This document shows, in pieces, positions 37,255 through 52,500 of a stretch of 64,000 nt of DNA. The stretch is from Eledone cirrhosa. Taxonomy: Eukaryota. Below the pieces are notes generated by a model. The model was not told where the DNA came from and did not search any database. It saw only the letters and a list, made by a program, of their open reading frames with translations. How positions within the stretch are numbered: the stretch's first letter is position 1; each line of letters begins with the position of its first letter. The DNA is taken from positions 30,256,001 to 30,320,000 of the forward strand of contig OZ024758.1 in NCBI GenBank assembly GCA_964016885.1, read 5' to 3'. Made by a program: the position numbers and the translations under genes.

Positions 37255-37456
37255 TCCAGAGTTGACATTGCACTCAGTGCTCCTTTGGGAGCCCCTACAT
37301 GGACACACTAGAAGCGGAAGACCAATGTTAACGTATGTTGATGCCCTAAGGACAGACACTGGTCTGTTGGAGACGCAGGACATGGCAGCGATAATGAGGG
37401 ACAGAGACCGCTGGAGAGAACTCGTCCATGGATCTCGGGAATTTTACCCGCCTTAG
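37255..37456 (+). mobile_element. RTE-like LINE 3' fragment
   Basis: VLLWEPLHG..RSGRP.LTYVDAL..DTG...MRDR..WR, a typical RTE-type ORF end. Confidence 0.75.
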
Positions 37457-37512
37457 ATAGAGAGATAGAGATGTATATATATATATAGTCGCTTACCACC
37501 ATATATATATAC

Positions 37513-40500
37513 AGGAGAGATTGTAGGGATGCTAGGGTGGAAGAAAATTGATGTCTGTTGTGTGGAGAAGATAGTCAGCTAGATTCCTGGTAGGCAAAAA
37601 ACATTGCTGCACATTTTTGAGGGTTGGAAACGTCGAGGCAGAGTAAGTATCTTATCTGACAAATGGGTAGATAAGGTAATCTCTGAACGTGAGAATCATT
37701 AATCTCAGACTAAATAGATCAATGACCACAATTATATCTGGTTTGACAGATAGCTTTGATGAATCCCTAATGCACACTACTGCACTAATGGATGATAGTG
37801 ACTCCCTAATGCACACTACTGCACTAACAGATGATAGTGCAGTAGTGTGCATTAGGGAGTCACTATCATCTGTTAGTGCAGTAGTGTGCATTAGGAAGTC
37901 ACTATCATCTGTTAGTGCAGCAGTGTGCATTAGGGAGTCACTATCATCTGTTAGTGCAGTAGTGTGCATTAGGGAGTCACTAACGGATGATAGTGACTCC
38001 CTAATGCACACTGCTGCACTAACAGATGATAGTGACTTCCTAATGCACACTGCTGCACTAACGGATGATAGTGACTCCCTAATGCACACTACTGCACTAA
38101 CGGATGATAGTGACTTCCTAATGCACACTGCTGCACTAACGGATGATAGTGACTCCCTAATGCACACTGCTGCACTAACGGATGATAGTGACTCCCTAAT
38201 GCACACTACTGCATTAACAGATGATAGTGACTTCCTAATGCACACTGCTGCACTAACGGATGATAGTGACTCCCTAATGCACACTGCTGCACTAACGGAT
38301 GATAGTGACTCCCTAATGCACACTGCTGCACTAACAGATGATAGTGACTCCCTAATGCACACTGCTGCACTAACGGATGATAGTGACTCCCTAATGCACA
38401 CTACTGCATTAACAGATGATAGTGACTTCCTAATGCACACTGCTGCACTAACGGATGATAGTGACTCCCTAATGCACACTGCTGCACTAACGGATGATAG
38501 TGACTCCCTAATGCACACTGCTGCACTAACAGATGATAGTGACTTCCTAATGCACACTGCTGCACTAACGGATGATAGTGACTCCCTAATGCACACTACT
38601 GCACTAACAGATGATAGTGACTTCCTAATGCACACTGCTGCACTAACGGATGATAGTGACTCCCTAATGCACACTACTGCACTAACAGATGATAGTGCAG
38701 TAGTGTGCATTAGGGAGTCACTATCATCTGTTAGTGCAGTAGTGTGCATTAGGAAGTCACTATCATCTGTTAGTGCAGCAGTGTGCATTAGGGAGTCACT
38801 ATCATCTGTTAGTGCAGTAGTGTGCATTAGGGAGTCACTAACGGATGATAGTGACTCCCTAATGCACACTGCTGCACTAACAGATGATAGTGACTTCCTA
38901 ATGCACACTGCTGCACTAACGGATGATAGTGACTCCCTAATGCACACTACTGCACTAACGGATGATAGTGACTTCCTAATGCACACTGCTGCACTAACGG
39001 ATGATAGTGACTCCCTAATGCACACTGCTGCACTAACGGATGATAGTGACTCCCTAATGCACACTACTGCACTAACAGATGATAGTGACTTCCTAATGCA
39101 CACTGCTGCACTAACGGATGATAGTGACTCCCTAATGCACACTGCTGCACTAACGGATGATAGTGACTCCCTAATGCACACTGCTGCACTAACAGATGAT
39201 AGTGACTTCCTAATGCACACTGCTGCACTAACGGATGATAGTGACTCCCTAATGCACACTACTGCACTAACAGATGATAGTGACTTCCTAATGCACACTG
39301 CTGCACTAACGGATGATAGTGACTCCCTAATGCACACTACTGCACTAACAGATGATAGTGACTTCCTAATGCACACTGCTGCACTAACGGATGATAGTGA
39401 CTCCCTAATGCACACTACTGCACTAACAGATGATAGTGACTTCCTAATGCACACTGCTGCACTAACGGATGATAGTGACTCCCTAATGCACACTGCTGCA
39501 CTAACAGATGATAGTGCAGCAGTGTGCATTAGGAAGTCACTATCATCTGTTAGTGCAGCAGTGTGCATTAGGAAGTCACTATCATCTGTTAGTGCAGTAG
39601 TGTGCATTAGGAAGTCACTATCATCTGTTAGTGCAGTAGTGTGCATTAGGAAGTCACTATCATCTGTTAGTGCAGCAGTGTGCATTAGGAAGTCACTATC
39701 ATCCGTTAGTGCAGCAGTGTGCATTAGGAAGTCACTATCATCTGTTAGTGACTTCCTAATGCACACTGCTGCACTAACAGATGATAGTGACTCCCTAATG
39801 CACACTGCTGCACTAACAGATGATAGTGACTCCCTAATGCACACTGCTGCACTAACAGATGATAGTGACTCCCTAATGCACACTGCTGCACTAACAGATG
39901 ATAGTGACTTCCTAATGCACACTACTGCACTAACAGATGATAGTGCAGCAGTGTGCATTAGGGAGTCACTAACAGATGATAGTGACTCCCTAATGCACAC
40001 TGCTGCACTAACGGATGATAGTGACTCCCTAATGCACACTACTGCACTAACGGATGATAGTGACTCCCTAATGCACACTACTGCACTAACGGATGATAGT
40101 GACTCCCTAATGCACACTACTGCACTAACGGATGATAGTGACTCCCTAATGCACACTACTGCACTAACGGATGATAGTGACTCCCTAATGCACACTACTG
40201 CACTAACGGATGATAGTGACTCCCTAATGCACACTACTGCACTAACAGATGATAGTGACTCCCTAATGCACACTACTGCACTAACAGATGATAGTGACTT
40301 CCTAATGCACACTACTGCACTAACAGATGATAGTGACTCCCTAATGCACACTACTGCACTAACGGATGATAGTGACTTCCTAATGCACACTACTGCACTA
40401 ACAGATGATAGTGACTTCCTAATGCACACTACTGCACTAACAAATGATAGTGACTCCCTAATGCACACTACTGCACTAACAGATGATAGTGACTCCCTAA

Positions 40501-43500
40501 TGCACACTACTGCACTAACGGATGATAGTGACTTCCTAATGCACACTACTGCACTAACAGATGATAGTGACTCCCTAATGCACACTGCTGCACTAACAGA
40601 TGATAGTGACTTCCTAATGCACACTGCTGCACTAACAGATGATAGTGACTCCCTAATGCACACTGCTGCACTAACGGATGATAGTGACTCCCTAATGCAC
40701 ACTGCTGCACTAACAGATGATAGTGACTCCCTAATGCACACTGCTGCACTAACAGATGATAGTGACTTCCTAATGCACACTGCTGCACTAACAGATGATA
40801 GTGACTTCCTAATGCACACTACTGCACTAACAAATGATAGTGACTCCCTAATGCACACTACTGCACTAACAGATGATAGTGACTCCCTAATGCACACTAC
40901 TGCACTAACGGATGATAGTGACTCCCTAATGCACACTACTGCACTAACAGATGATAGTGACTCCCTAATGCACACTGCTGCACTAACAGATGATAGTGAC
41001 TTCCTAATGCACACTGCTGCACTAACAGATGATAGTGACTCCCTAATGCACACTGCTGCACTAACGGATGATAGTGACTCCCTAATGCACACTACTGCAC
41101 TAACAGATGATAGTGACTCCCTAATGCACACTGCTGCACTAACAGATGATAGTGACTTCCTAATGCACACTACTGCACTAACAGATGATAGTGACTCCCT
41201 AATGCACACTACTGCACTAACAGATGATAGTGACTCCCTAATGCACACTGCTGCACTAACAGATGATAGTGACTTCCTAATGCACACTGCTGCACTAACA
41301 GATGATAGTGACTCCCTAATGCACACTACTGCACTAACAGATGATAGTGACTTCCTAATGCACACTACTGCACTAACAGATGATAGTGACTCCCTAATGC
41401 ACACTGCTGCACTAACAGATGATAGTGACTTCCTAATGCACACTGCTGCACTAACAGATGATAGTGACTCCCTAATGCACACTACTGCACTAACAGATGA
41501 TAGTGACTTCCTAATGCACACTACTGCACTAACAGATGATAGTGACTCCCTAATGCACACTGCTGCACTAACAGATGATAGTGACTCCCTAATGCACACT
41601 GCTGCACTAACAGATGATAGTGACTTCCTAATGCACACTACTGCACTAACAGATGATAGTGACTCCCTAATGCACACTGCTGCACTAACAGATGATAGTG
41701 ACTTCCTAATGCACACTACTGCACTAACAGATGATAGTGACTCACTAATGCACACTACTGCACTAACAGATGATAGTGACTCCCTAATGCACACTGCTGC
41801 ACTAACAGATGATAGTGACTTCCTAATGCACACTGCTGCACTAACAGATGATAGTGACTCCCTAATGCACACTGCTGCACTAACAGATGATAGTGACTTC
41901 CTAATGCACACTACTGCACTAACAGATGATAGTGACTCCCTAATGCACACTGCTGCACTAACAGATGATAGTGACTTCCTAATGCACATTACTGCACTAA
42001 CAGATGATAGTGACTCCCTAATGCACACTACTGCACTAACAGATGATAGTGACTCCCTAATGCACACTGCTGCACTAACAGATGATAGTGACTTCCTAAT
42101 GCACACTACTGCACTAACAGATGATAGTGACTCCCTAATGCACACTGCTGCACTAACAGATGATAGTGACTTCCTAATGCACACTACTGCACTAACAGAT
42201 GATAGTGACTCCCTAATGCACACTACTGCACTAACAGATGATAGTGACTCCCTAATGCACACTGCTGCACTAACAGATGATAGTGACTTCCTAATGCACA
42301 CTGCTGCACTAACAGATGATAGTGACTCCCTAATGCACACTACTGCACTAACAGATGATAGTGACTTCCTAATGCACACTACTGCACTAACAGATGATAG
42401 TGACTCCCTAATGCACACTGCTGCACTAACAGATGATAGTGACTTCCTAATGCACACTGCTGCACTAACAGATGATAGTGACTCCCTAATGCACACTACT
42501 GCACTAACAGATGATAGTGACTTCCTAATGCACACTACTGCACTAACAGATGATAGTGACTCCCTAATGCACACTGCTGCACTAACAGATGATAGTGACT
42601 CCCTAATGCACACTGCTGCACTAACGGATGATAGTGACTCCCTAATGCACACTACTGCACTAACAGATGATAGTGACTCCCTAATGCACACTACTGCACT
42701 AACAGATGATAGTGACTCCCTAATGCACACTGCTGCACTAACAGATGATAGTGACTTCCTAATGCACACTGCTGCACTAACAGATGATAGTGACTCCCTA
42801 ATGCACACTGCTGCACTAACGGATGATAGTGACTCCCTAATGCACACTACTGCACTAACAGATGATAGTGACTCCCTAATGCACACTGCTGCACTAACGG
42901 ATGATAGTGACTCCCTAATGTACACTGCTGCACTAACAGATGATAGTGACTTCCTAATGCACACTACTGCACTAACAGATGATAGTGACTCCCTAATGCA
43001 CACTGCTGCACTAACAGATGATAGTGACTTCCTAATGCACACTGCTGCACTAACGGATGATAGTGACTTCCTAATGCACACTACTGCACTAACAGATGAT
43101 AGTGACTTCCTAATGCACACTGCTGCACTAACGGATGATAGTGACTTCCTAATGCACACTACTGCACTAACAGATGATAGTGACTTCCTAATGCACACTG
43201 CTGCACTAACAGATGATAGTGACTCCCTAATGCACACTGCTGCACTAACAGATGATAGTGACTTCCTAATGCACACTACTGCACTAACAGATGATAGTGA
43301 CTCCCTAATGCACACTGCTGCACTAACAGATGATAGTGACTTCCTAATGCACACTACTGCACTAACAGATGATAGTGACTCCCTAATGCACACTACTGCA
43401 CTAACAGATGATAGTGACTCCCTAATGCACACTGCTGCACTAACAGATGATAGTGACTTCCTAATGCACACTACTGCACTAACAGATGATAGTGACTCCC

Positions 43501-46500
43501 TAATGCACACTGCTGCACTAACAGATGATAGTGACTTCCTAATGCACACTACTGCACTAACAGATGATAGTGACTCCCTAATGCACACTACTGCACTAAC
43601 AGATGATAGTGACTCCCTAATGCACACTGCTGCACTAACAGATGATAGTAACTTCCTAATGCACACTGCTGCACTAACAGATGATAGTGACTCCCTAATG
43701 CACACTACTGCACTAACAGATGATAGTGACTTCCTAATGCACACTACTGCACTAACAGATGATAGTGACTCCCTAATGCACACTGCTGCACTAACAGATG
43801 ATAGTGACTTCCTAATGCACACTGCTGCACTAGCAGATGATAGTGACTCCCTAATGCACACTACTGCACTAACAGATGATAGTGACTTCGTAATGCACAC
43901 TACTGCACTAACAGATGATAGTGACTCCCTAATGCACACTGCTGCACTAACAGATGATAGTGACTCCCTAATGCACACTGCTGCACTAACGGATGATAGT
44001 GACTCCCTAATGCACACTACTGCACTAACAGATGATAGTGACTCCCTAATGCACACTACTGCACTAACAGATGATAGTGACTCCCTAATGCACACTGCTG
44101 CACTAACAGATGATAGTGACTTCCTATTGCACACTGCTGCACTAACAGATGATAGTGACTCCCTAATGCACACTGCTGCACTAACGGATGATAGTGACTC
44201 CCTAATGCACACTACTGCACTAACAGATGATAGTGACTCCCTAATGCACACTGCTGCACTAACGGATGATAGTGACTCCCTAATGTACACTGCTGCACTA
44301 ACGGATGATAGTGACTCCCTAATGCACACTACTGCACTAACAGATGATAGTGACTCCCTAATGCACACTGCTGCACTAACGGATGATAGTGACTCCCTAA
44401 TGCACACTACTGCACTAACAGATGATAGTGACTCCCTAATGCACACTGCTGCACTAACGGATGATAGTGACTCCCTAATGCACACTACTGCACTAACAGA
44501 TGATAGTGACTTCCTAATGCACACTACTGCACTAACAGATGATAGTGACTTCCTAATGCACACTACTGCACTAACAGATGATAGTGACTTCCTAATGCAC
44601 ACTGCTGCACTAACGGATGATAGTGACTTCCTAATGCACACTACTGCACTAACAGATGATAGTGACTTCCTAATGCACACTACTGCACTAACAGATGATA
44701 GTGACTCCCTAATGCACACTACTGCACTAACAGATGATAGTGACTTCCTAATGCACACTACTGCACTAACAGATGATAGTGACTCCCTAATGCACACTGC
44801 TGCACTAATGGATGATAGTGACTCCCTAATGCACACTGCTGCACTAATGGATGATAGTGACTCCCTAATGCACACTGCTGCACTAATGGATGATAGTGAC
44901 TCCCTAATGCACACTGCTGCACTAATGGATGATAGTGACTCCCTAATGCACACTGCTGCACTAATGGATGATAGTGACTTCCTAATGCACACTAATGCAC
45001 TAACAGATGATAGTGACTTCCTAATGCACACTGCTGCACTAACAGATGATAGTGACTTCCTAATGCACACTACTGCACTAACAGATAGTGACTCCCTAAT
45101 GCACACTACTGCACTAACAGATGATAGTGACTTCCTAATGCACACTGCTGCACTAATGGATGATAGTGACTTCCTAATGCACACTACTGCACTAACCGAT
45201 GATAGTGACTTCCTAATGCACACTGCTGCACTAACAGATGATAGTGACTTCCTAATGCACACTACTGCACTAACAGATGATAGTGACTCCCTAATGCACA
45301 CCACTGCACTAACAGATGATAGTGACTTCCTAATGCACACTGCTGCACTAATGGATGATAGTGACTCCCTAATGCACACTGCTGCACTAATGGATGATAG
45401 TGACTTCCTAATGCACACTACTGCACTAACAGATGATAGTGACTCCCTAATGCACACTGCTGCACTAATGGATGATAGTGACTCCCTAATGCACACTGCT
45501 GCACTAATGGATGATAGTGACTTCCTAATGCACACTACTGCACTAACGGATGATAGTGACTCCCTAATGAACACTGCTGCACTAACAGATGATAGTGCAG
45601 TAGTGTGCATTAGGAAGTCACTATCATCTGTTAGTGCAGCAGTGTGCATTAGGGAGTCACTATCATCCGTTAGTGCAGTAGTGTGCATTAGGGAGTCACT
45701 ATCTGTTAGTGCAGTAGTGTGCATTAGGAAGTCACTATCATCTGTTAGTGCAGCAGTGTGCATTAGGAAGTCACTATCATCTGTTAGTGCAGTAGTGTGC
45801 ATTAGGAAGTCACTATCATCCATTAGTGCAGCAGTGTGCATTTGGGAGTCACTATCATCCATTAGTGCAGCAGTGTGCATTAGGAAGTCACTATCATCTG
45901 TTAGTGCAGTAGTGTGCATTAGGGAGTCACTATCATCTGTTAGTGCAGTAGTGTGCATTAGGAAGTCACTATCATCTGTTAGTGCAGTAGTGTGCATTAG
46001 GAAGTCACTAACAGATGATAGTGACTCCCTAATGCACACTGCTGCACTAACAGATGATAGTGACTTCCTAATGCACACTACTGCACTAACAGATGATAGT
46101 GACTTCCTAATACACACTGCTGCACTAACAGATGATAGTGACTTCCTAATGCACACTACTGCACTAACATGATAGTGACTTCCTAATGCACACTGCTGCA
46201 CTAACAGATGATAGTGACTTCCTAATGCACACTACTGCACTAACCGATGATAGTGACTTCCTAATGCACACTGCTGCACTAACAGATGATAGTGACTTCC
46301 TAATGCACACTACTGCACTAACAGATAGTGACTCCCTAATGCACACTACTGCACTAACGGATGATAGTGACTCCCTAATGCACACTGCTGCACTAACAGA
46401 TGATAGTGACTCCCTAATGCACACTACTGCACTAACGGATGATAGTGACTTCCTAATGCACACTGCTGCACTAACGGATGATAGTGACTTCCTAATGCAC

Positions 46501-49500
46501 ACTACTGCACTAACAGATGATAGTGACTTCCTAATGCACACTACTGCACTAACAGATGATAGTGACTTCCTAATGCACACTACTGCACTAACAGATGATA
46601 GTGACTTCCTAATGCACACTACTGCACTAACAGATGATAGTGACTTCCTAATGCACACTACTGCACTAACAGATGATAGTGACTTCCTAATGCACACTAC
46701 TGCACTAACAGATGATAGTGACTTCCTAATGCACACTACTGCACTAACAGATGATAGTGACTTCCTAATGCACACTACTACACTAACAGATGATAGTGAC
46801 TCCCAAATGCACACTGCTGCACAAACAGATGATAGTGACTTCCTAATGCACACTGCTGCACTAACAGATGATAGTGACTTCCTAATGCACACTACTGCAC
46901 TAACAGATGATAGTGCAGCAGTGTGCATTAGGAAGTCACTATCATCTGTTAGTGCAGTAGTGTGCATTAGGAAGTCACTATCATCTGTTAGTGCAGCAGT
47001 GTGCATTAGGAAGTCACTAACAGATGATAGTGACTTCCTAATGCACACTACTGCACTAACAGATGATAGTGACTTCCTAATGCACACTGCTGCACTAACA
47101 GATGATAGTGACTTCCTAATGCACACTACTGCACTAACAGATGATAGTGACTTCCTAATGCACACTACTGCACTAACAGATGATAGTGACTTCCTAATGC
47201 ACACTGCTGCACTAACGGATGATAGTGACTTCCTAATGCACACTACTGCACTAACAGATGATAGTGACTTCCTAATGCACACTACTGCACTAACAGATGA
47301 TAGTGACTTCCTAATGCACACTACTGCACTAACAGATGATAGTGACTTCCTAATGCACACTACTGCACTAACAGATGATAGTGACTCCCTAATGCACACT
47401 GCTGCACTAACAGATGATAGTGACTTCCTAATGCACACTGCTGCACTAACGGATGATAGTGACTTCCTAATGCACACTACTGCACTAACAGATGATAGTG
47501 ACTCCCTAATGCACACTACTGCACTAACGGATGATAGTGACTCCCTAATGCACACTGCTGCACTAACAGATGATAGTGACTTCCTAATGCACACTACTGC
47601 ACTAACAGATGATAGTGACTTCCTAATGCACACTACTGCACTAACAGATGATAGTGACTTCCTAATGCACACTGCTGCACTAACGGATGATAGTGACTTC
47701 CTAATGCACACTACTGCACTAACAGATGATAGTGACTTCCTAATGCACACTACTGCACTAACAGATGATAGTGACTTCCTAATGCACACTACTGCACTAA
47801 CAGATGATAGTGACTTCCTAATGCACACTACTGCACTAACAGATGATAGTGACTCCCTAATGCACACTGCTGCACTAACAGATGATAGTGACTTCCTAAT
47901 GCACACTACTGCACTAACAGATGATAGTGACTTCCTAGTGCACACTACTGCACTAACAGATGATAGTGACTTCCTAATGCACACTGCTGCACTAACGGAT
48001 GATAGTGACTTCCTAATGCACACTACTGCACTAACAGATGATAGTGACTTCCTAATGCACACTACTGCACTAACAGATGATAGTGACTTCCTAATGCACA
48101 CTACTGCACTAACTGATGATAGTGACTTCCTAATGCACACTGCTGCACTAACGGATGATAGTGACTTCCTAATGCACACTACTGCACTAACAGATGATAG
48201 TGACTCCCTAATGCACACTACTGCACTAACGGATGATAGTGACTCCCTAATGCACACTGCTGCACTAACAGATGATAGAGACTTCCTAATGCACACTACT
48301 GCACTAACAGATGATAGTGACTTCCTAATACACACTACTGCACTAACAGATGATAGTGACTTCCTAATGCACACTGCTGCACTAACGGATGATAGTGACT
48401 TCCTAATGCACACTACTGCACTAACAGATGATAGTGACTTCCTAATGCACACTACTGCACTAACAGATGATAGTGACTTCCTAATGCACACTACTGCACT
48501 AACAGATGATAGTGACTTCCTAATGCACACTACTGCACTAACAGATGATAGTGACTCCCTAATGCACACTGCTGCACTAACAGATGATAGTGACTTCCTA
48601 ATGCACACTACTGCACTAACAGATGATAGTGACTTCCTAATGCACACTGCTGCACTAACGGATGATAGTGACTCCCTAATGCACACTACTGCACTAACAG
48701 ATGATAGTGACTCCCCAATGCACACTGCTGCACTAAAAGATGATAGTGACTTCCTAATGCACACTACTGCACTAACAGATGATAGTGACTTCCTAATGCA
48801 CACTGCTGCACTAACGGATGATAGTGACTTCCTAATGCACACTACTGCACTAACAGATGATAGTGACTTCCTAATGCACACTACTGCACTAACAGATGAT
48901 AGTGACTTCCTAATGCACACTACTGCACTAACAGATGATAGTGACTTCCTAATGCACACTACTGCACTAACAGATGATAGTGACTCCCTAATGCACACTG
49001 CTGCACTAACAGATGATAGTGACTTCCTAATGCACACTGCTGCACTAACGGATGATAGTGACTTCCTAATGCAGACTACTGCACTAACAGATGATAGTGA
49101 CTCCCTAATGCACACTACTGCACTAACGGATGATAGTGACTCCCTAATGCACACTGCTGCACTAACAGATGATAGTGACTTCCTAATGCACACTACTGCA
49201 CTAACAGATGATAGTGACTTCCTAATGCACACTGCTGCACTAACAGATGATAGTGACTTCCTAATGCACACTACTGCACTAACAGATGATAGTGACTCCC
49301 TAATGCACACTGCTGCACTAACAGATGATAGTGACTTCCTAATGCACACTGCTGCACTAACGGATGATAGTGACTTCCTAATGCACACTACTGCACTAAC
49401 AGATGATAGTGACTCCCTAATGCACACTACTGCACTAACGGATGATAGTGACTCCCTAATGCACACTGCTGCACTAACAGATGATAGTGACTTCCTAATG

Positions 49501-52500
49501 CACACTACTGCACTAACAGATGATAGTGACTTCCTAATGCACACTGCTGCACTAACAGATGATAGTGACTTCCTAATGCACACTGCTGCACTAACAGATG
49601 ATAGTGACTTCCTAATGCACACTACTGCACTAACAGATGATAGTGACTTCCTAATGCACACTGCTGCACTAACGGATGATAGTGACTTCCTAATGCACAC
49701 TACTGCACTAACAGATGATAGTGACTTCCTAATGCACACTACTGCACTAACAGATGATAGTGACTCCCTAATGCACACTGCTGCACTAACAGATGATAGT
49801 GACTTCCTAATGCACACTGCTGCACTAACGGATGATAGTGACTCCCTAATGCACACTACTGCACTAACAGATGATAGTGACTTCCTAATGCACACTACTG
49901 CACTAACGGATGATAGTGACTTCCTAATGCACACTACTGCACTAACGGATGATAGTGACTTCCTAATGCACACTGCTGCACTAACGGATGATAGTGACTC
50001 CCTAATGCACACTACTGCACTAACAGATGATAGTGACTTCCTAATGCACACTACTGCACTAACAGATGATAGTGACTCCCTAATGCACACTGCTGCACTA
50101 ACAGATGATAGTGACTTCCTAATGCACACTGCTGCACTAACGGATGATAGTGACTCCCTAATGCACACTACTGCACTAACAGATGATAGTGACTCCCTAA
50201 TGCACACTACTGCACTAACAGATGATAGTGACTTCCTAATGCACACTGCTGCACTAACGGATGATAGTGACTCCCTAATGCACACTACTGCACTAACAGA
50301 TGATAGTGACTTCCTAATGCACACTACTGCACTAACGGATGATAGTGACTCCCTAATGCACACTACTGCATTAACGGATGATAGTGACTCCCTAATGCAC
50401 ACTACTGCACTAACAGATGATAGTGACTCCCTAATGCACACTGCTGCACTAACAGATGATAGAGACTTCCTAATGCACACTACTGCACTAACAGATGATA
50501 GTGACTTCCTAATACACACTACTGCACTAACAGATGATAGAGACTTCCTAATGCACACTACTGCACTAACAGATGATAGTGACTTCCTAATGCACACTGC
50601 TGCACTAACAGATGATAGAGACTTCCTAATGCACACTACTGCACTAACAGATGATAGTGACTTCCTAATACACACTACTGCACTAACAGATGATAGTGAC
50701 TTCCTAATGCACACTGCTGCACTAACGGATGATAGTGACTTCCTAATGCACACTACTGCACTAACAGATGATAGTGACTTCCTAATGCACACTACTGCAC
50801 TAACAGATGATAGTGACTTCCTAATGCACACTACTGCACTAACAGATGATAGTGACTTCCTAATGCACACTACTGCACTAACAGATGATAGTGACTCCCT
50901 AATGCACACTGCTGCACTAACAGATGATAGTGACTTCCTAATGCACACTACTGCACTAACAGATGATAGTGACTTCCTAATGCACACTACTGCACTAACA
51001 GATGATAGTGACTTCCTAATGCACACTGCTGCACTAACGGATGATAGTGACTTCCTAATGCACACTACTGCACTAACAGATGATAGTGACTTCCTAATGC
51101 ACACTACTGCACTAACAGATGATAGTGACTCCCTAATGCACACTACTGCACTAACGGATGATAGTGACTTCCTAATGCACACTACTGCACTAACAGATGA
51201 TAGTGACTCCCTAATGCACACTGCTGCACTAACAGATGATAGTGACTTCCTAATGCACACTGCTGCACTAACGGATGATAGTGACTTCCTAATGCACACT
51301 ACTGCACTAACAGATGATAGTGACTTCCTAATGCACACTACTGCACTAACAGATGATAGTGACTCCCTAATGCACACTACTGCACTAACGGATGATAGTG
51401 ACTTCCTAATGCACACTACTGCACTAACAGATGATAGTGACTCCCTAATGCACACTGCTGCACTAACGGATGATAGTGACTTCCTAATGCACACTACTGC
51501 ACTAACAGATGATAGTGACTTCCTAATGCACACTACTGCACTAACAGATGATAGTGTCTCCCTAATGCACACTGCTGCACTAACGGATGATAGTGACTTC
51601 CTAGTGCACACTACTGCACTAACAGATGATAGTGACTCCCTAATGCACACTGCTGCACTAACAGATGATAGTGACTCCCTAATGCACACTGCTGCACTAA
51701 CGGATGATAGTGACTTCCTAATGCACACTACTGCACTAACAGATGATAGTGACTTCCTAATGCACACTACTGCACTAACAGATGATAGTGACTTCCTAAT
51801 GCACACTACTGCACTAACGGATGATAGTGACTCCCTAATGCACACTACTGCACTAACAGATGATAGTGACTCCCTAATGCACACTGCTGCACTAACAGAT
51901 GATAGTGACTTCCTAATGCACACTGCTGCACTAACGGATGATAGTGACTTCCTAATGCACACTACTGCACTAACGGATGATAGTGACTTCCTAATGCACA
52001 CTACTGCACTAACAGATGATAGTGACTCCCTAATGCACACTACTGCACTAACAGATGATAGTGACTTCCTAATGCACACTACTGCACTAACGGATGATAG
52101 TGACTTCCTAATGCACACTACTGCACTAACGGATGATAGTGACTCCCTAATGCACACTACTGCACTAACAGATGATAGTGACTCCCTAATGCACACTGCT
52201 GCACTAACAGATGATAGTGACTTCCTAATGCACACTGCTGCACTAACGGATGATAGTGACTTCCTAATGCACACTACTGCACTAACAGATGATAGTGACT
52301 TCCTAATGCACACTACTGCACTAACAGATGATAGTGACTCCCTAATGCACACTGCTGCACTAACAGATGATAGTGACTTCCTAATGCACACTGCTGCACT
52401 AACGGATGATAGTTACTCCCTAATGCACACTACTGCACTAACAGATGATAGTGACTTCCTAATGCACACTACTGCACTAACGGATGATAGTGACTTCCTA

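What the first reader, a model, noticed from the sequence alone, without database searches (positions are those of the whole stretch)
37835..47019. Six inversions in the satellite all break at the unit's own CACTA/TAGTG mini-hairpin and keep the frame
Seen: inverted blocks at 37835-37982, 38693-38840, 39512-39750, 39941-39971, 45593-46010 and 46911-47019 (4, 4, 6, 1, 11 and 3 units). Every entry is at TAGTG and every exit at CACTA or TAGTG, the 5-bp inverted repeat in CACTA-ACAGATGA-TAGTG. This hairpin is absent from the RTE at 7.5 kb (CTCTA...CAAGG). Block 5 carries local rare variants (ATGGAT, the 3-bp deletion, CCCAAATG), so it was templated from neighbours. Inference: recurrent site-specific template switching, like a self-encoded invertible site. 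Any transcript would fold into dsRNA homologous to the RTE endonuclease, a possible silencing trigger.
Basis: partly seen in the sequence, partly recalled or inferred. Interest (0 to 1): 0.8.

Follow-up and report, generated by a model that had tools for sequence, protein, structure and literature searches.

The report
Flipped blocks in an octopus minisatellite
A long tandem repeat that grew out of a dead retrotransposon in an octopus-type genome holds six short backwards blocks whose ends all fall on a five-letter mirror motif inside the repeat unit, most likely the scars of ordinary DNA-copying slips rather than a dedicated flipping switch or a silencing device.

Summary
Six inverted blocks lie at the stated coordinates in an 18.5-kb array of 474 units of 39 bp, expanded inside an RTE endonuclease region. 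All 12 junctions overlap by exactly 5 nt at CACTA/TAGTG.

The interpretation shrinks. Blocks 1 and 2 are one event copied by an 858-bp duplication, so there are at most five events. There are only two junction sequences. Keeping the frame is automatic. CACTA/TAGTG is simply the unit's best inverted homology (14 of 18 bp). Fold-back at the 8-nt hairpin on the top strand is not supported by variant matching.

Block 5 mirrors both flanks exactly at its junctions (top two of 62 shifts; 0 of 287 control windows do this). That is the DUP/INV/DUP shape of small inverted triplications, with matching sizes (median 148 bp, 5-bp junctions). Blocks 4 and 6 fit in-place flips. Blocks 1-3 match neither flank.

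Most likely cause: microhomology-primed template switching plus array turnover. Copying of founder junctions is the main rival. I found no recombinase and no sign of transcription; the array lies 14 kb past the paladin stop. Read-level confirmation was inconclusive.

The parts
37764..56285 (+). 39-bp minisatellite array, 474 units; unit = CACTA + 8-nt spacer S + TAGTG + 21-nt segment M
37652..37810 (+). Left remnant of the host RTE copy (endonuclease region) running into the first unit
   Evidence: blastn to the RTE copy at 7290-9700, 71-79% identity
56236..57446 (+). Right remnant of the host RTE copy; continues collinearly after the last unit
   Evidence: 71.8% identity over 1359 columns to the RTE copy; sequence
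40240..40257 (+). One example of the unit's 18-bp quasi-palindrome (5-bp arms, 14 of 18 positions self-complementary)
37835..37982 (-). Inverted block 1 (148 bp), identical to block 2
38693..38840 (-). Inverted block 2 (148 bp); no mirror of either flank
37790..39071 (+). 858-bp (22-unit) direct duplication carrying blocks 1 and 2; exact over 37790-38213 against 38648-39071
39512..39750 (-). Inverted block 3 (239 bp), the only one with a TAGTG exit; variant content unlike its neighbourhood
39941..39971 (-). Inverted block 4 (31 bp): one flipped 21-nt segment between its arms
45593..46010 (-). Inverted block 5 (418 bp): centre of a DUP/INV/DUP arrangement
45208..45597 (+). Upstream flank copy mirrored by block 5 (14 of 20 tokens alike)
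46006..46434 (+). Downstream flank copy mirrored by block 5 (14 of 21 tokens alike)
46911..47019 (-). Inverted block 6 (109 bp) inside a two-unit alternation; fits an in-place flip
7286..9700 (+). Better-preserved RTE-type retrotransposon copy used for comparison; the 39-bp source stretch is at about 7520-7570 and lacks the arms
   Evidence: Pfam endonuclease E 2e-4 (below the curated cut-off), reverse transcriptase E 6e-15
23584..23721 (+). Last coding exon of a paladin gene, 14 kb before the array (context)

Best explanation
The six backwards blocks sit in a minisatellite that expanded from 13 codons of a dead RTE retrotransposon, and they most likely arose when a growing DNA end mis-primed on the unit's own 18-bp quasi-palindrome, copied a few units backwards and switched back. 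SHOWN: the array's origin inside the RTE, seamless 5-nt junctions at the best inverted homology of the unit, duplication of one block, and mirror similarity of block 5 to both flanks. INFERRED: that the blocks come from two to five separate template-switch events during replication or repair; that block 5 is a small inverted triplication whose flanks were later partly overwritten by array turnover; that blocks 4 and 6 are in-place flips; and that blocks 1-3 are older, or imported, and have lost their match to the flanks. Because every unit offers the same arms in the same register, any such event lands at the same spot and heals without a scar. No enzyme or function is needed.
For: Junctions: 12 of 12 at the longest exact inverted match of the unit, in the register with the best inverted alignment, 14 of 18 bp. 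A second 5-nt register, present in 58% of plus segments but with no extra pairing, is never used: p about 0.01 if the 10 junctions of 5 events are independent. In yeast ODIRA junctions, longer inverted repeats are used more often (PMC10766183, passages). Block 5: the centres at its entry and exit rank 3 and 1 of 391 placements by likelihood, give the longest mirrored runs, 11 and 10 tokens, among 445, and are the top two of 62 nearby shifts; 0 of 287 control windows show such a type-consistent pair. Sizes match small inverted triplications: median 148 bp here (5 events) against 160 bp; 5-bp against 6-bp junctions; 8- and 21-nt against 30-nt spacers (PMC13334657). In-place flips are the commonest short template-switch class, 45% of 794 human-chimp events (PMC5453318, passages).
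Against: Only 1 of 5 events shows the triplication signature. In block 5, 6 of 20 and 7 of 21 tokens differ from the flanks, the two flank copies share only 9 of 20, and a third local copy gives an equally long 10-token run, so a local higher-order repeat exists. Tokens differing by one base were counted alike when one of them was rare (2 copies or fewer). The control windows overlap and are not independent; 12 of 287 reach 0.66 on both adjacent sides and 2 of 287 have some adjacent pair on top. Blocks 1-3 mirror neither flank at any centre near their junctions, apart from 2-token comparisons. Four of five events keep the 8-nt spacer outside at both ends (p 0.016 if the four combinations were equal), whereas one strand using the 14-of-18 pairing at both switches would give the other combinations (my derivation). 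With two founder junctions the register preference is not significant (p 0.4). The 31-bp array at 12239-18599 has an equally good quasi-palindrome and no inversion, though only 1.7 were expected (p 0.18).
Confidence: 0.6

Rival explanations
1. One or two founder inversions made the two junction sequences. Unequal exchange, duplication and gene conversion then copied them along the array and refilled the blocks. The apparent site specificity is shared descent.
For: Blocks 1 and 2 are a demonstrated copy. Only two junction sequences exist, the third form being a reverse complement. All 6 entries follow the same spacer variant (p 0.12 for 5 events). All blocks lie in the left half of the array. 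Blocks 1-3 look non-local, for example 6 of 6 T at a site that is T in 12 of 36 neighbours. In Tribolium, conserved inversion junctions occur as identical copies on different chromosomes (PMC12581902, PMC13081366, passages).
Against: Block 5 is made of local variants arranged as mirrors about its own junctions, which points to origin on the spot. The tokens next to the junctions differ between blocks 2-6. Block lengths run from 1 to 11 units.
Confidence: 0.2
2. All blocks are in-place inversions made by recombination between two copies of the 18-bp quasi-palindrome, with no gain of sequence. Block 5 merely happens to sit in a 10-11-unit higher-order repeat.
For: A reciprocal exchange gives exactly the TAGTG...CACTA-bounded form seen in 4 of 5 events (derivation). 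Block 6 un-inverts to a perfect two-unit alternation, and block 4 fits its neighbours. A third related copy lies 21 units upstream of block 5.
Against: Block 3 (TAGTG at both ends) cannot come from a single such exchange. Block 5's length would have to equal the local period by chance (0 of 287 controls). Blocks 1-3 do not resemble their surroundings.
Confidence: 0.12
3. The blocks are artefacts of sequencing or assembly, such as fold-back reads or amplification chimeras.
For: The array starts 510 bp after a 200-N gap and is hard to assemble. The junctions could not be confirmed in independent data.
Against: Fold-back reads give exact mirrors; these blocks differ from their flanks and carry private variants. 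One block lies in a duplication whose copies have since diverged. Seams are exact at 12 of 12 junctions.
Confidence: 0.05
4. An enzyme flips these segments: a site-specific invertase, or a CACTA-family transposase that mistakes CACTA...TAGTG for its element ends.
For: [quoted passage not shown] Cuts after TAGTG and before CACTA would give the form seen in 4 of 5 events (derivation).
Against: There is no longer terminal repeat: the sixth base already mismatches. No 3-bp target duplication in 6 of 6 blocks. No recombinase or transposase domain in the 14 frames scanned (not all 32 ORFs were scanned). Block 3 does not fit. The arms are not clearly more conserved than the 21-nt segment (0.6 against 0.9 distinct changes per site).
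Confidence: 0.02
5. The blocks are kept because a transcript folds into double-stranded RNA that silences RTE elements.
For: An 821-nt stretch across block 5 would fold into one long stem, -754 kcal/mol. The unit derives from RTE coding sequence.
Against: Such folding is automatic for any inverted block in a tandem array. Homology to the RTE copy in the window is confined to a patch of about 35 nt: one exact 18-mer, no 19-mer, 21-mers with up to 2 mismatches at 15 start positions. The array begins 14 kb after the paladin stop, and no paladin exon lies beyond it.
Confidence: 0.04

Closest known systems
Small inverted triplications (SIT; PMC13334657)
   Same: DUP/INV/DUP shape (block 5), inverted part of about 150 bp, short reverse-complement junctions, short spacers, recurrent sites, a link to repeats.
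   Different: SITs were described in cancers and in rad27 mutant yeast, with none in wild-type yeast or in 15 human genomes. Here they are fixed in an animal genome assembly inside a minisatellite, where periodicity puts every junction at the same spot. Only 1 of 5 events keeps the mirror signature. FEN1 and Okazaki links are untested.
ODIRA inverted triplications (PMC10766183)
   Same: [quoted passage not shown]
   Different: ODIRA amplicons contain a replication origin and prefer 40-80 bp for arms plus spacer; here 18 and 31 bp, and blocks of 31-418 bp.
Four-point short template switches (PMC5453318)
   Same: Reverse-complement copying from nearby sequence; the in-place class (1-3-2-4) fits blocks 4 and 6.
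   Different: Described as scattered single events between genomes, not as repeated events in one tandem array.
Conserved inversion sites and macro-dyad symmetry in Tribolium satellites (PMC12581902, PMC13081366)
   Same: A satellite array that switches orientation at a few fixed junction sequences.
   Different: There the subarrays are multi-kilobase, centromeric and spread over chromosomes, with truncated or diverged monomers at the switch. Here 5.9% of one array is inverted, in short blocks with intact in-register units.
Retrotransposon-derived tandem repeats (PMC7004042)
   Same: An array expanded from a stretch inside a retroelement.
   Different: There from Ogre LTR elements in a plant; here from the endonuclease coding region of a non-LTR RTE.

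Membership tests
Small inverted triplication (SIT) | DUP/INV/DUP: the inverted part mirrors both flanks | tested here: inconclusive
   Met for block 5 (14 of 20 and 14 of 21 tokens; top two of 62 shifts). Block 6 mirrors both flanks 4 of 4 but with a mixed pair of centres. Not seen for blocks 1-3; block 4 too short.
Small inverted triplication (SIT) | Reverse-complement junctions of about 6 bp | tested here: met
   5-nt overlaps at 12 of 12 junctions
Small inverted triplication (SIT) | Inverted part about 160 bp, spacers about 30 bp (medians) | tested here: met
   Median 148 bp, range 31-418; spacers 8 and 21 nt
Small inverted triplication (SIT) | Arises at Okazaki junctions, suppressed by FEN1/Rad27 | not testable with these tools
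   No replication or genetic data
ODIRA | Junctions at pre-existing interrupted inverted repeats within 100 bp of each other | tested here: met
   Arms 8 or 21 nt apart in every unit
ODIRA | Preferred size of arms plus spacer 40-80 bp | tested here: not met
   Block 5 centres correspond to 18 and 31 bp; centres one to three tokens further out gave no signal
ODIRA | Amplified segment contains a replication origin | not testable with these tools
   No origin map
Four-point template switch | Inserted part is a reverse-complement copy of nearby sequence | tested here: inconclusive
   Met for block 5, compatible for 4 and 6, no local source for 1-3; the exact match of block 1 at 41072 arises in 317 of 1000 shuffles
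Site-specific invertase system (features recalled, not from a call) | Recombinase gene near the invertible segment | tested here: inconclusive
   None in 14 frames scanned; not all ORFs were scanned, and a distant gene cannot be excluded
Site-specific invertase system (features recalled, not from a call) | Long, conserved inverted recognition sites | tested here: not met
   5-bp exact arms, 14 of 18 at best; 67 of 500 shuffled units do as well
CACTA transposon | Ends begin CACTA and finish TAGTG | tested here: inconclusive
   The motifs are present, but five of six blocks are bounded TAGTG...CACTA, the reverse of an element
CACTA transposon | 3-bp target site duplication | tested here: not met
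   0 of 6 blocks
CACTA transposon | Terminal inverted repeats extending beyond the 5-bp motif | tested here: not met
   Mismatch at position 6
Tribolium-type macro-dyad satellite | Few conserved inversion junctions | tested here: met
   Two junction sequences in 12 junctions
Tribolium-type macro-dyad satellite | Multi-kilobase opposed subarrays | tested here: not met
   Longest block 418 bp; 5.9% of the array inverted
Tribolium-type macro-dyad satellite | Centromeric, on many chromosomes | not testable with these tools
   No whole genome held

The most novel reading that the evidence does not exclude
A repeat unit with an internal quasi-palindrome is a self-renewing germline hotspot for small inverted triplications. 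Every unit offers the same primer in the same register, so each event heals without a scar, and the inverted blocks persist as fossils shielded from homogenisation. This array would then record the birth of the fixed inversion sites and macro-dyad symmetry seen in larger satellites, and be a natural reporter for an event class so far seen mainly in FEN1-deficient cells.
Probability: 0.3. Interest if true: 0.55.

Novelty: new variant of a known kind. Interest (0 to 1): 0.33.

Why it matters
How satellite arrays acquire orientation switches at fixed positions is open: the Tribolium papers describe conserved inversion sites and suggest function, but the passages I read give no tested origin. This array offers a simple rule that can be tested across any long-read genome: switches fall on the unit's best inverted homology and start as short template-switch products. 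Unit variants let one block be read as a DUP/INV/DUP event. It also warns that identical junctions in a satellite need neither selection nor an enzyme. It does not point to a new enzyme or a function.

Tried and rejected
1. Top-strand fold-back at the 8-nt hairpin. The upstream mirror ranks 326 of 428, 141 of 415, 445 of 445 (one token only), 382 of 391 and 242 of 434 for blocks 2-6; block 1 has too little array upstream to test. Rejected.

2. Larger loops. Centres up to three tokens from each junction gave no signal for blocks 1-3 beyond 2-token comparisons.

3. A distant source for block 1. The exact 148-nt match at 41072 is expected by chance (317 of 1000 shuffles).

4. Read-level check. 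One search listed 24 runs, best share of words 0.32; no RNA holder listed. Four of the 24, all contig sets, were laid on 37260-38000. X1 covered 29 of 30 bins, no strand-changing joint was listed, and none of the 22 pieces shown (6298 not shown) bridged a junction. Inconclusive either way.

5. No whole genome is held. A unit pattern had 0 matches in metagenome contigs. Earlier findings: none.

6. Coding role. The array is stop-free over 2830 and 3430 codons on the plus strand and up to 2859 on the minus strand. This is a by-product: the unit is 13 codons, none of its common plus-frame codons is one change from a stop (worked out by hand), and a 2-bp deletion at about 46168 shifts the frame. 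No coding role inferred.

7. Selection on the arms: 0.6 distinct changes per site against 0.9 and 1.75 elsewhere. Too few to call.

8. Other arrays as controls: no inverted 9-mers in the 31-, 48- (two) and 20-bp arrays; no switches in three AT-rich compound repeats, and a few uninformative ones in three others.

9. Structure search of the paladin exon found nothing; the homolog search identified it.

10. Literature. Nine searches showed no paper on inverted triplications inside a minisatellite at a unit-internal palindrome, nor on this octopod repeat. Most hits were seen only as listings, and the library lacks most subscription papers.
Full report
CONTEXT. The window comes from an octopod animal. 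A plus-strand exon finds paladin of Octopus bimaculoides and a protein of Argonauta hians among 4 hits. tblastn places seven paladin exons between 354 and 23718, the last reaching the protein's end. No whole genome is held. The array runs 37764-56285 and parses into 474 units of 39 bp. It starts 510 bp after a 200-N gap. Both flanks align collinearly, at 71-79% identity, with the RTE-type copy at 7290-9700, which has reverse transcriptase and weak endonuclease Pfam matches. The unit is 13 codons of the endonuclease region. The copy at 7.5 kb has a short direct repeat 39 bp apart at this spot, a plausible seed (inference), and lacks the arms.

OBSERVATION. I wrote the unit as L (CACTA), S (8 nt), R (TAGTG), M (21 nt). 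Six blocks are inverted, at exactly the reported coordinates, and 12 of 12 junctions overlap by 5 nt on an arm with no scar. Four points reduce the claim. Blocks 1 and 2 are identical and lie in an 858-bp duplication. The exit of block 3 is the reverse complement of the other exits, so two junction sequences account for everything. L and R occupy the same positions modulo 39 in both orientations, so any break at an arm keeps the frame. Five blocks are bounded R...L, the arms facing across M.

IS THE SITE SPECIAL? The arms are the longest exact inverted match in the periodic unit (5 nt). The alternatives are a second 5-nt register inside M in 58% of plus segments, and 4-nt TGCA matches. L-S-R pairs with itself at 14 of 18 positions for the common spacer; the second register has only its arms. 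If ten junctions were independent, never using the second register has p about 0.01; with two founders p is 0.4. The quasi-palindrome itself is unremarkable: 67 of 500 shuffled units score as well, and the hairpin folds at -2.1 kcal/mol, z -1.2. The 31-bp array in the same window has an equally good quasi-palindrome and no inversion, with 1.7 expected (p 0.18). So the site is the best available microhomology, not a recognised sequence. In yeast, longer interrupted inverted repeats are used more often at inversion junctions (PMC10766183, passages).

WHERE DID THE BLOCKS COME FROM? I coded S and M variants as tokens and compared each block with every mirrored placement. It ranks 326 of 428, 141 of 415, 445 of 445, 382 of 391 and 242 of 434 for blocks 2-6, so it is not supported.

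Block 5 is different. It mirrors the upstream flank about its own first M (14 of 20 tokens) and the downstream flank about the S just after it (14 of 21). These are the top two of 62 nearby shifts. None of 287 control windows shows such a type-consistent pair, 2 show some adjacent pair on top, and 12 reach 0.66 on both sides (the windows overlap, and one-base differences involving rare tokens were counted alike). The two centres form the pair expected if one bottom-strand end folded at the 8-nt loop and returned across the 21-nt side (my derivation). Against this: a third of the tokens differ, the two flank copies share only 9 of 20, the matches are longest away from their own junctions, and a third related copy lies 21 units upstream. 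A two-ended repair event copying from both flanks would fit as well.

Block 6 un-inverts to a perfect two-unit alternation and block 4 is a single segment; both fit in-place flips. Blocks 1-3 match neither flank and look non-local. They may be older, or imported.

COMPARISON. Small inverted triplications have medians of 148/160/148 bp, 30-bp spacers and 6-bp reverse-complement junctions. They arise in rad27 mutant yeast, were not found in wild-type yeast or 15 human genomes, and are unstable on plasmids (PMC13334657: abstract, results parts 1-2 of 3, section 2.6 and discussion read). Here the median of five events is 148 bp and junctions are 5 bp. ODIRA shares the junction rule but prefers 40-80 bp and needs an origin. 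In the four-point model, in-place inversion makes up 45% of 794 events (PMC5453318, passages). Tribolium satellites switch orientation at a few conserved junctions with identical copies on different chromosomes (PMC12581902, PMC13081366, passages), which is the precedent for the founder-copy rival. Retroelement-derived arrays are known (PMC7004042, listing and passages). CACTA and TAGTG are also the ends of CACTA transposons (PMC4158355, passage), but there is no longer terminal repeat, no target duplication in 6 of 6 blocks, and no transposase domain in the 14 frames scanned. I opened no supplements; those of the SIT and Tribolium papers may list junction sequences that bear on novelty.

FUNCTION. 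RNA across block 5 would form one long stem, as for any inverted block in an array. Its match to the RTE copy in the window is a patch of about 35 nt with no exact 19-mer; closer RTE subfamilies elsewhere in the genome could not be checked. The array lies 14 kb past the paladin stop. Nothing here shows transcription. The giant open frames are a by-product of a stop-free 13-codon unit.

LEFT UNEXPLAINED. Four of five events keep S outside the block at both ends (p 0.016 under equal odds). One strand using the 14-of-18 pairing at both switches would give the other combinations. Reciprocal exchange, two-ended repair or shared founders each predict what is seen. All blocks lie in the left half of the array. 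The junctions are unconfirmed in reads.

VERDICT. A real and tidy case of microhomology-guided inversion inside a retrotransposon-derived minisatellite, with one block readable as a small inverted triplication. It is a new setting for known mutational processes, not a site-specific system. Interest 0.33.

Noticed in passing
window 354-23721 (+): Seven coding exons of the C-terminal half of a paladin gene; several tandem arrays and the RTE copy at 7.3-9.7 kb lie in its introns.
   Followed up: yes
window 27420-28095: A 676-bp near-perfect palindrome (89% identity to its own reverse complement), like a fold-back or MITE element.
   Followed up: no
window 12239-18599: Intronic 31-bp array with a 17-bp quasi-palindrome and no inversions. 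It has two identical irregular patches at 14411-14469 and 17052-17110, 2641 bp apart, made of partial repeats of the quasi-palindrome.
   Followed up: partly
window 37680-46172 and 46168-56460 (+); 37652-46231, 46164-52412, 52413-56300 (-): The 39-bp array is stop-free for thousands of codons on both strands, straight through the inverted blocks; gene finders may call false giant proteins here.
   Followed up: partly
window about 49600-54000: A 66-unit (about 2.6 kb) direct duplication in the right half of the array with an 83-token exact run; no inversion lies right of 47019.
   Followed up: partly
window 8965-9543 against 31562-32143: Two RTE fragments 97.8% identical in opposite orientation 22 kb apart, suggesting a recently active family; the frames carry a PHD-like finger after the reverse transcriptase.
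   Followed up: no
window 10538-11233 and 21300-21562: Two intronic arrays of a related 48-bp unit (about 80% alike), each running into the same interspersed repeat.
   Followed up: no
window 37255-37460: A very high-copy 3' end of another interspersed element directly after the assembly gap; present in contigs of all four runs laid.
   Followed up: no
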